A stretch of 64,000 bases of DNA from a virus: IMG/VR virus record IMGVR_UViG_3300036772_000425, positions 266,924 through 330,923 of that record, one strand, 5' to 3'. This document shows positions 39,229-42,828 of the stretch, piece by piece. Each line of letters starts with the position of its first letter. Position 1 is the first letter of the stretch. Made by a program: the position numbers and the translations under genes. The notes under the pieces are model-generated. The model had not been told where the DNA came from and made no database searches. It saw only the letters and a program-made list of their open reading frames with translations.

Positions 39229-39834
39229 TCACGTCGTCTTCCCATGCGATGGGGGTGTAGAAGAAAGGAGAGCGCTCACAGCGCTTCGAAACTCCGACTT
39301 GGCCAGTTCCAGGGTTGCATGAGCCTCGCACACCCGCTGCAGTTCGGGTGACATCCGATCGTAGGAGATGAAACGCTCCTTCGGATCCGTCTGCTTGAGC
39401 TCTTCCATGGTCCGGACCATCTCTGACCAGAACTTCTGTGAGGCATCGATGTCGGATCGTAGCTCTCTGTCGCGCAGTTCGCACTTGAGCAGCAGATCAC
39501 GGCTTTTACCCGCCAGCCGAGCGTCGGTCGAGCTCTGGACTGCCACCTCATCGATGAGGTGCTTGGACACGGTCACGCCATTGCCCAAGGAAACCTGCGG
39601 AGAGTTCGTCTTGACATGCAAGCCCGGTAGGACTTGCGATCCGATCCCACATGACATTGCATCCTCGTGGGGCCGGTCCAACCTCCCGGGCTCTGCGTAC
39701 AGTTCCTTGGAATTGACCGTGTCCGCGGGCTTCCAGTTGCTGGGATGGTTGCAATCGCTCGTTCCCCAGTGCCTGCAGCAGTAGCCGAGGTGAGAAACGT
39801 TTTCAGCCTGCTCGGCCGTGTTCTTCTGTTCCAT
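39229..39834 (-). CDS. Hypothetical Cys/His-cluster protein (about 201 aa)
   Basis: Start chosen at MEQKNTAEQ to abut the upstream SGNH gene. HLGYCCRHWGTSDCNHP cluster. Confidence 0.4.
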   Translation of the reverse strand: MEQKNTAEQAENVSHLGYCCRHWGTSDCNHPSNWKPADTVNSKELYAEPGRLDRPHEDAMSCGIGSQVLPGLHVKTNSPQVSLGNGVTVSKHLIDEVAVQSSTDARLAGKSRDLLLKCELRDRELRSDIDASQKFWSEMVRTMEELKQTDPKERFISYDRMSPELQRVCEAHATLELAKSEFRSAVSALLSSTPPSHGKTT

Positions 39835-39839
39835 GCAGC

Positions 39840-40436
39840 TCAAGGTACAACCCGCCAGATCTCCCTGATCCACCGCTCGGCACCCGCCCTGGTCGGATGC
39901 ACCCCATCGACCAACGGGATCTTTGCGGCCTGCGTATCGAAGTAGGTGCACCGTGGCACCGCGGCGCGCCTGATCACGTCATTGATGGGCCAATCCCGCC
40001 CGTGAACCTGGGTGTTGCCCACCCAAACGCAGGGAACAGAACCCAACTGAGTCAGCAACGAACCGACGGGTGGTACGGTGCTGCTGTTGTAGTGATTCGT
40101 GCCCAAGAAGATGATGATCACGTCTGGGTTTGGATGCAGCTGCAGGGCGCGCCTAGCATGGCCCGCAGCCCAGTGCTGGACAGTTGTACCATTTTGGCAC
40201 TCCACGTCAACAGAATCGTGCGGGGCTCCTGCCTCATCGTTGATCGTCCGGACCAACCCGGGTAGGTCGTTCAGGATCCTGACAGCACATGCCTCACTGT
40301 CGCCCAAGATCAGGACATGTCTCGGTGAGACAGCCTGAACCTCCAGCGCTGCGTCGGGGAACTTCAACGGATCATGGTCAGCGCGTGGAACTGAACAACC
40401 CAGGAAGGCGCACAGCACCCAAGCCAGGGGTCGCAT
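39840..40436 (-). CDS. Secreted/lipoprotein-like SGNH (GDSL) hydrolase
   Basis: Start at MRPLAWVLCAFLGCSVP (hydrophobic signal peptide with FLGC lipobox-like cysteine). Block I ILGDSEA, block III FLGTNHYN, block V DGVHP. TGATG overlap with the methyltransferase stop. Confidence 0.65.
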   Translation of the reverse strand: MRPLAWVLCAFLGCSVPRADHDPLKFPDAALEVQAVSPRHVLILGDSEACAVRILNDLPGLVRTINDEAGAPHDSVDVECQNGTTVQHWAAGHARRALQLHPNPDVIIIFLGTNHYNSSTVPPVGSLLTQLGSVPCVWVGNTQVHGRDWPINDVIRRAAVPRCTYFDTQAAKIPLVDGVHPTRAGAERWIREIWRVVP

Positions 40437-41035
40437 CACTTCTTCCGAAGGATGATGGGTTCTCCCTGGATCGGCTTGATCAGCTCCCAACCTGGGTGCG
40501 ACACCAACCAATCATCGACCGCGGGTTTGACCCCGTGTTTTTCGGTGTCAACCGGCTTGGTGACAGAGGTCACGTCCTGGTACCCTTCCCTCTCAGAGTA
40601 CCAGAGGTCCCGCTCTGACCAACGTCCGTCGTAGTCATCGATGACAACCAACGTGTGCGGGTGGCACAGATCCTCAAGCGAGGACAGTTCGTTGGAGACG
40701 GTGTGGTAGTTGTGATCACCGTCCAGCATGATCACATCGAACTTCATACCGGTCTTGACCAGCTCGGGCAGCGCCTGCAAGCTGTTTCCTTGGATGCAGG
40801 CCACCTCCTGCCCAGCCTGCAGGTCAAGGTTGTTGAGGATCAGCCTGACCTGTTCCTGGACCAGCACGTCAACCCCCAGGACGACGAACCCGGCCCGGGT
40901 ACGGGCCAGGAACGCAACTAGCGGGATCAGTGTCGTGCCCCGATCGATGCCCACCTCCAGGACGGAGACAGATCGATCCTTGGGTAGGCCGTGAAGTTCA
41001 TGCTTGATCAGGGGCAAGTATCCCACGTAGCTCAT
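40436..41035 (-). CDS. Class I SAM-dependent methyltransferase (TylF/CmcI-like O-methyltransferase family)
   Basis: Start at MSYVGYLPL. VLEVGIDRGTT glycine-rich SAM motif. FDVIMLDGDHNYHTV resembles macrocin-O-MTase family proteins. Confidence 0.65.
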   Translation of the reverse strand: MSYVGYLPLIKHELHGLPKDRSVSVLEVGIDRGTTLIPLVAFLARTRAGFVVLGVDVLVQEQVRLILNNLDLQAGQEVACIQGNSLQALPELVKTGMKFDVIMLDGDHNYHTVSNELSSLEDLCHPHTLVVIDDYDGRWSERDLWYSEREGYQDVTSVTKPVDTEKHGVKPAVDDWLVSHPGWELIKPIQGEPIILRKK

Positions 41036-41278
41036 CCTAGAATTCTCCGTTATGTTGGTCGGTTCAGCCGCCGGCGAGCAGGACCTGGATCGTGGTCTCC
41101 ACCCGGGCACGAAGCTCGTCGGGCAATGCCGACATCAGGACATACGTCTCACCCCTGAGGCCCGATGCGGGCACCCCCTCGCTGATCGAGGTGTCATTTG
41201 GGATACCCAGACGAAGTGTCAGCGGTGCGCTGCCGCCGACGACAGAAATGATGGGCTGGTATGGATTGATTCTCTGCA

Positions 41279-41488
41279 TCAGGTGCTCCGTTCTTCCTTC
41301 GGTTTCTCCGCCAACAACCGTTCGAGCTCCTTGCTCAGGAGCTTGGCATCACCGCCGACGACTGCGTTGGCCATGACACGTTCCAGGAACTCAGCGTAAC
41401 GCCGGTCCCATTCCTCACGGGTTTCCTTCTGCAGGTTTGCCTTGAGACGTGCCTGCTTTGCCTGCTGGCTCTTCGTCTGCAAGATCAA
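41279..41488 (-). CDS. Small coiled-coil protein (69 aa)
   Basis: Lys/Glu-rich. Stop/start coupled with the 41485..41673 ORF. Confidence 0.4.
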   Translation of the reverse strand: MILQTKSQQAKQARLKANLQKETREEWDRRYAEFLERVMANAVVGGDAKLLSKELERLLAEKPKEERST

Positions 41489-41673
41489 TCCTTGAGCAGG
41501 CGACGACCCTCGGTCAGGGCCTCCGTCAGCTTCAGGTGCTGAGCCTTGAGGCGGTTACGTTGGATGTCGAGCGCCATGATCACGCTCGCAGGTTTTCCCT
41601 GAGCCTGAGCATCTCGGTACTCGTCATCCAGCTTCTGGATCTCCAACAGCAGGTTCTCGGTCGTCGCTGACAT
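41485..41673 (-). CDS. Small coiled-coil protein (62 aa)
   Basis: ATG ORF coupled to 41279..41488. Confidence 0.4.
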   Translation of the reverse strand: MSATTENLLLEIQKLDDEYRDAQAQGKPASVIMALDIQRNRLKAQHLKLTEALTEGRRLLKD

Positions 41674-41706
41674 GCCAAGGATCCTACCTCACGGTAGGAT
41701 GATTGA

Positions 41707-42435
41707 TCAATCTAACGCCAGTTCTCTCTGTGATTTCTTCAGACGCTTTAGCGTTGAGTACGACACTCCGTGTTCCTTCATCAGGTCCACCAACGGTGTG
41801 TTGACGATCGCTTGTAATAGTTCTGAGCTCGGTTCGAACTTCGTGGAAGCTGAAATCTTCGATCGTGTCTCTGTTGAAGGTTGACGACGATGTGAACATG
41901 CATCAGAACATGTTGTCCGAACATGGTACCTCCTGTTCTGAGAGAACTCAACCTTGAAAGAGGTGCCGCAATGGCACGTTCGAACCTCGACAACCTCATC
42001 CTTCGCACCCAACCGACGCTCATGAGCGATGGGCCAGCATTTCCGGAGCTTGTCTCGGGTTTCAGGTCCTAGAACCCGACCGACGCAGTGGGTGTTACCC
42101 TTCAGAGCTTCGGAGAGTGTTTGACGGGCTGCATCTGTCATTCCTCTTCCGCACGGATCAATGTTGTAACCCTTGTTTGAGTTCATGGAATCCAGCTCGG
42201 AGATCCAGAACCTTTCTCGATCATCAATCGTTGAGTCTGAGCACTCTTCAATGATTTCGAAAATGAAGTTCTCAACACCGTGCTTTCGCATTGAACGATA
42301 AAGAGGATATTCCACTCTCGTGTCTTTCGACGCGTAAAGATGACCCGCCTTACGTTGAGCGAAGTTGTAGGTCTGCCCTACGTAAACTTTACCATTCACC
42401 TGATTGGTGATCTTGTAGATGTACCGCATGAACAA
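41707..42435 (-). mobile_element. GIY-YIG homing endonuclease (Seg/I-TevI-like), free-standing
   Basis: 242 aa. YIYKITNQVNGKVYVGQTYNFAQRKAGH...NKGYN is a GIY-YIG catalytic module. C-terminal DNA-binding region. Located directly next to the tmRNA gene. Confidence 0.8.
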
Positions 42436-42469
42436 CCTTACTACATGTTCACATGATATATCGTGCGAG

Positions 42470-42828
42470 TGGAGCAGCCGGGAATTGAACCCGGGTCCGC
42501 AGCGCGTCTTCCGATCACTTCTTCACAAGCTTGGCCCCTTTTGCTGCTCGGCCCAGGGACAGGCCTAGAGGACGAATTTCACGTCTTTATCCCCAATGAC
42601 GGTGCCTGTACGCCGGTCACCTGACGTTTTCCGACCCAGGACGCTCGGTCGCGCGCTCAGCATTCTGTTCCGAGGTCGCTGAGGACCCGATCCGTCACGC
42701 CGCGAGGCGGAGCGGAAGTGCGCCGTTGTCGTTGGCAGCTATACGTCACTTGGGTTTTTAGACCGGACCCTCGTGCACCGGTGCTTGCAGTGAAAGGCTT
42801 CAGAACCACGTCGAAACCTGTCTGCCCC
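42470..42828 (-). ncRNA. ssrA: Phage-encoded tmRNA (one-piece SsrA)
   Basis: Minus-strand RNA 5'-GGGGCAGACAGGUUUCGACGUGG... (compare E. coli GGGGCUGAUUCUGGAUUCGACGGG) ...3' GGACCCGGGUUCAAUUCCCGGCUGCUCCA. Acceptor stem GGGGCAG/CUGCUCC with a G3:U70 pair (alanine identity) and a T-arm CCGGG-UUCAAUU-CCCGG. Internal tag reading frame GUAUAGCU-GCC AAC GAC AAC GGC GCA CUU CCG CUC CGC CUC GCG GCG UGA encodes (A)ANDNGALPLRLAA. About 359 nt. Confidence 0.8.

What the first reader, a model, noticed from the sequence alone, without database searches (positions are those of the whole stretch)
39840..42435. Accessory island between fibre and head modules: signal-peptide SGNH hydrolase + TylF-like SAM methyltransferase, next to a GIY-YIG endonuclease and the tmRNA
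A secreted/lipoprotein-type SGNH esterase (GDS, GTNH, DGVHP blocks) is translationally coupled to a class I SAM O-methyltransferase. Neither belongs to the conserved T4 core. The pair lies in a region rich in mobile elements (GIY-YIG gene, tmRNA). The pairing suggests modification of a cell-surface glycan or of phage fibres (deacetylation plus methylation), for example superinfection exclusion or receptor remodelling.
Basis: inference. Interest (0 to 1): 0.55.

Follow-up and report, generated by a model that had tools for sequence, protein, structure and literature searches.

The report
Phage lipoprotein esterase beside core methyltransferase
A giant, uncultivated T4-like soil phage encodes an exported, lipid-anchored sugar esterase next to a highly conserved methyltransferase; both genes are real and the esterase probably remodels the host cell wall, but they are not a mobile island and probably not one pathway.

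Summary
SGNH gene (39840-40436, -) and methyltransferase gene (40436-41035, -) overlap by one base (TGATG). The GIY-YIG gene and the tmRNA are also real.

- **Methyltransferase (MT), tmRNA and small ORFs** are syntenic core genes of a clade of huge T4-like phages. Order: gp23 … tmRNA … s62-s71-MT-[variable]-p149-p527.
- **Foreign DNA:** only the GIY-YIG gene is compositionally foreign.
- **Variable slot:** the SGNH gene lies here, in 12 of 27 distinct relatives. It always sits directly before a fast-evolving protein X. In several relatives a PG-binding M15 endolysin comes next.
- **SGNH protein:** N-terminal hydrophobic signal plus conserved lipobox Cys, a Pro/Val/Ala-rich linker, and a compact domain with invariant S-(G)-N-H residues and four invariant Cys. 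Its nearest relatives are DUF459/PatB-type peptidoglycan O-acetyltransferases, but it keeps the esterase-type block II Gly and lacks the PatB hairpins.
- **MT protein:** Methyltransf_24, metal-dependent sugar-type O-methyltransferase fold. It is below the TylF threshold and matches no DNA/RNA methyltransferase family. It also occurs without the SGNH gene and in other gene contexts.

Best reading: a periplasmic, lipid-anchored carbohydrate O-acetyl esterase, most likely acting on peptidoglycan, beside an independent core O-methyltransferase of unknown substrate. Interest is moderate.

The parts
39840..40436 (-). SGNH/GDSL esterase gene, 198 aa, with ATG at 40436 and stop at 39840-39842. It encodes an exported lipoprotein-type enzyme.
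40395..40436 (-). Signal peptide with lipobox, residues 1-14 (MRPLAWVLCAFLGC). Cys14 is the predicted lipid-modified residue.
   Evidence: Read from the sequence. A Cys aligned with C14 is present in at least 90% of 61 homologues. 88 of 92 full-length homologues have a hydrophobic N-terminal core, and 46 of 92 fit the strict PROSITE-type lipobox pattern. No SignalP or LipoP was available.
40323..40394 (-). Low-complexity linker, residues 15-38, between the lipid anchor and the catalytic domain.
   Evidence: pLDDT is 59-74 and there is no secondary structure. In homologues the Cys-to-GDSEAC stretch is 30-59 residues; the linker within it is rich in Pro, Val, Ala, Ser and Thr.
39843..40322 (-). 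Compact SGNH catalytic domain, residues 39-198. It holds block I G45-D-S47, block II G83, block III G112-T-N114 and block V D177-x-x-H180. Four Cys are invariant (50, 80, 136, 163).
   Evidence: Invariant columns in 61 sequences. The model shows a five-stranded alpha/beta fold.
40436..41035 (-). O-methyltransferase gene, 199 aa, with no signal peptide. It has a class I SAM-dependent, metal-dependent O-methyltransferase fold. Its stop codon overlaps the SGNH start by one base.
   Evidence: Methyltransf_24 at 51.3 bits and RMNT_CmcI at 23.7 bits. At least 321 homologues at 54-72% identity. Invariant E27-x-G-x-D-x-G33, D56, D105-G-D-H-N109 and D133-D134. pLDDT 94.2. Foldseek matches COMT, TrmR, MeT1, MycF and CalS11.
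39229..39834 (-). Gene X, 201 aa, with no signal peptide and no family match. It directly follows the SGNH gene in every SGNH-bearing relative. Only its C-terminal motif (K/R)(F/Y)VxxD(S/T)MPxxLxxV is conserved.
   Evidence: Only 4 database homologues. No Pfam, NCBIfam, PHROG or PADLOC hit.
41064..41279 (-). s71, a conserved 71-aa ORF directly upstream of the methyltransferase gene. It is a clade core gene of unknown function.
   Evidence: Present upstream of the methyltransferase in nearly all clade loci. Alignment A4.
41279..41673 (-). s69 (41279-41488) and s62 (41485-41673), two small overlapping ORFs that head the tightly packed block s62-s69-s71-MT-SGNH-X.
   Evidence: ORF coordinates and overlaps. 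s62-like coiled-coil ORFs occur in relatives. No promoter or terminator signal inside the block above shuffled expectation.
41707..42429 (-). Free-standing GIY-YIG/NUMOD3 homing endonuclease gene. It is the only compositionally foreign gene here and is not part of the conserved block.
   Evidence: PF01541 and PF07460. TIGR01453 at 90.8 bits. GC3 0.53 against 0.77 ± 0.045. Its position varies between relatives.
42467..42828 (-). Phage tmRNA gene with tag ANDNGALPLRLAA. It is a syntenic clade feature, not a mobile element.
   Evidence: ARAGORN. Rfam RF00023 at 87.8 bits. Found at the same syntenic position in L002, L004, L005, L006, L011 and L015.

Best explanation
Two adjacent late genes sit in a tightly packed block (s62-s69-s71-MT-SGNH-X) in the morphogenesis region of a roughly 340-kb, uncultivated T4-like phage.

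**SGNH product.**
1. It is made with a lipoprotein signal peptide and exported. Export is inferred from features that are shown.
2. It is lipid-anchored at Cys14 and held on a flexible linker of about 25 residues in the periplasm. This is inferred.
3. It is stabilised by two disulfides, inferred from four invariant Cys.
4. There it acts as a serine esterase with a canonical Ser47-Gly83-Asn114-His180/Asp177 site. The residues are shown; the activity is inferred.
5. It removes short O-acyl (acetyl) groups from a cell-envelope glycan.

The most likely substrate is O-acetylated peptidoglycan. That would make it a variable cell-wall-remodelling accessory of the lysis/adsorption region. In relatives the order is SGNH-X-(PG-binding M15 endolysin)-fibre-like genes.

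**Methyltransferase (MT).** It is a separate, cytoplasmic, metal-dependent O-methyltransferase of the sugar-O-methyltransferase kind. It is a core gene of the clade. Its one-base overlap with the SGNH gene reflects operon packing and co-expression, not an obligate two-enzyme pathway. Its substrate is unknown, and a sugar hydroxyl is the best guess.
For: **Anatomy**
- Coordinates, the TGATG overlap and the motifs are as stated.

**Export and anchoring**
- Homologues show a hydrophobic N-terminus, a conserved Cys and a Pro/Val/Ala-rich linker.
- Four Cys are invariant.
- The model has a disordered residue 1-38 region and a confident domain.

**Enzyme class**
- G45, D46, S47, G112, T113, N114, D177 and H180 are invariant.

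**Link to peptidoglycan-acting enzymes**
- The best PDB sequence-profile hits are PatB and a DUF459 protein, E 1e-3 to 6e-3.
- The best Foldseek hit is PatB 7tjb.
- 31 of 61 homologues weakly match DUF459.
- In the 1.84-billion-protein library, 6 of the 20 more distant relatives tested pass the DUF459 gathering score.
- DUF459 is the PatB peptidoglycan O-acetyltransferase family (PMC9487903).

**Esterase rather than transferase**
- The window protein keeps the block II Gly that PatB and OatA replace (bioRxiv 10.1101/2024.09.17.613324).
- The model has no hairpin wings.
- No MBOAT or AT3 gene appears among the Pfam-annotated genes of the window.

**Context**
- The order SGNH-X-lysin (PG_binding_1 + Peptidase_M15_4) is seen in L004, L008 and L011.
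- The same architecture persists across phages of 43-66% GC, which argues for a conserved rather than strain-specific substrate (inference).

**MT independence**
- MT is present in all 27 distinct clade relatives. SGNH is present in 12.
- The orthologous MT in a second clade lies between a TnsA-like endonuclease and RuvC-like, primase and SbcCD genes.

**MT as a sugar-type O-methyltransferase**
- Pfam assigns Methyltransf_24 and CmcI.
- The fold matches MycF, CalS11 and MeT1.
- Homologues at 33-40% identity sit in marine phage glycan-synthesis islands.
Against: - No activity, substrate or localisation has been measured.
- The window protein itself gives no DUF459 hit.
- The neighbouring endolysin in relatives is a peptidase, which O-acetylation should not block. 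A simple 'licensing of the lysin' role is therefore not implied, and no lysin lies next to the pair in this window.
- The lipobox FLGC is not canonical at positions -3 and -2. About half of the homologues fail a strict lipobox pattern.
- 13 of 14 SGNH-bearing viral contigs have MT directly upstream. A functional dependence of SGNH on MT is therefore not excluded.
- The host, and whether its peptidoglycan is O-acetylated, are unknown.
Confidence: 0.42

Rival explanations
1. Receptor-glycan editing. The anchored esterase de-O-acetylates LPS O-antigen, capsule or exopolysaccharide units as they cross the periplasm. Infected cells and their debris then no longer bind this phage or competing phages. 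This would give superinfection exclusion or protect progeny, by analogy with the phage T5 Llp lipoprotein gene, which lies next to the receptor-binding-protein gene (own knowledge).
For: - The protein is an exported lipoprotein.
- The gene sits just upstream of fibre-like genes p149 and p527, or of 2,259-2,512-aa fibre-like genes in relatives.
- It is present in only some relatives, as expected for a host-specific accessory.
Against: - A periplasm-facing anchor does not reach surface polymers.
- The catalytic domain and its aromatic residues are conserved across phages of 43-66% GC. That fits a conserved substrate better than hypervariable O-antigens.
- SGNH presence shows no obvious correlation with the type of downstream fibre genes.
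- The nearest sequence relatives are peptidoglycan-directed.
Confidence: 0.2
2. Outer-membrane or lipid esterase for the last step of lysis. Anchored in the outer membrane, the enzyme hydrolyses phospholipid or lipoprotein ester bonds once the wall is cut. It would play the role that spanins, or mycobacteriophage LysB, play elsewhere.
For: - The lipoprotein-plus-linker architecture resembles o-spanins.
- The gene lies next to an endolysin in relatives.
- Foldseek hits to TesA (thioesterase I / lysophospholipase L1) rank 3-8.
- JGI names the protein 'lysophospholipase L1-like esterase'.
Against: - The nearest families are carbohydrate acetyl-transferases and esterases, not lipases.
- No inner-membrane partner is seen, and gene X has no transmembrane segment.
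- The gene is missing from more than half of the clade, so it cannot be the general lysis solution.
Confidence: 0.12
3. PatB-like O-acetyltransferase. The phage enzyme takes acetyl groups from the host PatA/MBOAT shuttle and O-acetylates peptidoglycan. This would harden the infected cell against lysozymes, for example the tail lysozymes of superinfecting phages, or against premature lysis. The phage's own peptidase-type lysin would be unaffected.
For: - PatB is the top PDB hit both by sequence profile and by Foldseek.
- The family has DUF459 affinity.
- 16 of 61 homologues carry Ser instead of Gly in block II, as NgPatB does.
- Val or Ile precedes the catalytic His.
- It is membrane-tethered on a linker, as PatB is.
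- The lysin in relatives is an M15 peptidase, which would be insensitive to O-acetylation.
Against: - The window protein keeps the canonical block II Gly.
- The model lacks the two beta-hairpins proposed to dock PatA.
- No MBOAT is seen in the window.
- The model would depend on the host having PatA.
Confidence: 0.1
4. One two-step pathway. The methyltransferase (MT) and SGNH modify the same glycan: methylation of a precursor in the cytoplasm, then deacetylation after export.
For: - Stop and start overlap, so the two genes are co-expressed.
- 13 of 14 SGNH-bearing viral contigs have MT directly upstream.
- Distant MT homologues lie two genes away from a GDSL protein in marine phage glycan islands.
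Against: - MT occurs without SGNH in 15 of 27 relatives and throughout a second clade.
- IscU or endonuclease genes are inserted between the two genes in some relatives.
- The two products are in different compartments.
- The marine GDSL protein is cytoplasmic and not detectably related beyond the superfamily level: the SGNH profile gave no hit at E 1e-5.
- No glycosyltransferase is present in the window.
Confidence: 0.12
5. This rival concerns the methyltransferase (MT) only. It acts on a nucleic acid or nucleotide, for example a hydroxylated or glycosylated base or tRNA/tmRNA, as the TrmR member of the same fold does. It would not act on a glycan.
For: - TrmR is the second-ranked Foldseek hit.
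- JGI assigns it to the YrrM COG.
- In the second clade, MT lies among a TnsA-like endonuclease, a RuvC-like protein, a primase and SbcCD.
- Very high conservation (50-72%) across phages of 32-66% GC suggests a universal substrate.
- A tmRNA gene lies 1.4 kb away.
Against: - No DNA/RNA methyltransferase family is hit in Pfam or NCBIfam.
- The best TM-scores are to the sugar O-methyltransferases MycF and CalS11.
- Pfam CmcI/RMNT is hit.
- Distant homologues lie in glycan islands.
Confidence: 0.15

Closest known systems
PatB / DUF459 (PF04311) periplasmic peptidoglycan O-acetyltransferases of Gram-negative bacteria (Neisseria, Campylobacter; PDB 7TJB, 8TLB, 8GR2)
   Same: - SGNH fold with a Ser-His-Asp triad and block III Asn.
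- Membrane-tethered in the periplasm through a long linker.
- Best PDB hit by sequence profile and by Foldseek.
- More distant members of the phage family's wider group pass the DUF459 threshold.
- Val or Ile precedes the catalytic His.
   Different: - It has a lipobox anchor, not a transmembrane helix.
- The domain is about 160 aa, against about 217, and lacks the two beta-hairpin wings.
- Block II Gly is kept in the window protein.
- Four invariant Cys are present.
- No PatA partner is seen.
- The window protein itself gives no DUF459 hit.
- It is probably a hydrolase rather than a transferase.
Ape1 O-acetyl-peptidoglycan esterase (Neisseria; PDB 4K3U, 8GLD)
   Different: Ape1 is a two-domain protein of about 350-365 aa with an inserted carbohydrate-binding module. 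It is not the closest relative by sequence or by fold.
Carbohydrate esterase family 3 and acetyl-xylan esterases, and the OatA C-terminal domain (PDB 7DDY, 5B5S, 2VPT, 6VJP)
   Different: Sequence identity is only 15-23%. They are secreted or fused enzymes of bacteria and fungi, with no lipoprotein anchor and no phage context.
Phage SGNH esterases already known: tail-fibre or tailspike esterase domains (G7C gp63.1, PDB 4QNL; SFP21A Gp09, 9LNA) and prophage NanS-p sialate O-acetylesterases (PMC10462455)
   Different: The tail-fibre esterases are virion-borne domains of large fibre proteins; NanS-p is a prophage-encoded enzyme that is not membrane-anchored (own knowledge). This one is a small, stand-alone, lipid-anchored periplasmic protein made inside the infected cell.
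Metal-dependent class I O-methyltransferases of the TylF/MycF, CalS11, CmcI/RMNT and MeT1 kind (Pfam clan with Methyltransf_24)
   Same: - Rossmann fold, with Foldseek E about 1e-7 and TM up to 0.65 to MycF.
- Pfam Methyltransf_24 and, marginally, CmcI/RMNT are hit.
- The invariant acidic residues D105 and D133-D134 lie where the metal ligands of this group lie (the mapping is by analogy).
   Different: - It scores below the TylF threshold.
- It is a phage-specific orthologous group with a highly conserved insert of about 35 residues (GRWSERDLWY…EKHGVKPAVD).
- It has no cellular homologue above about 40% identity in 185,579 species genomes.
- Its substrate is unknown.
Phage T5 Llp, a lytic-conversion lipoprotein encoded next to the receptor-binding-protein gene (own knowledge, not tested here)
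   Same: It is a phage lipoprotein gene placed beside adsorption-apparatus genes and made in the infected cell.
   Different: Llp is a small non-enzymatic blocker of FhuA. This protein is an enzyme with a complete catalytic site.

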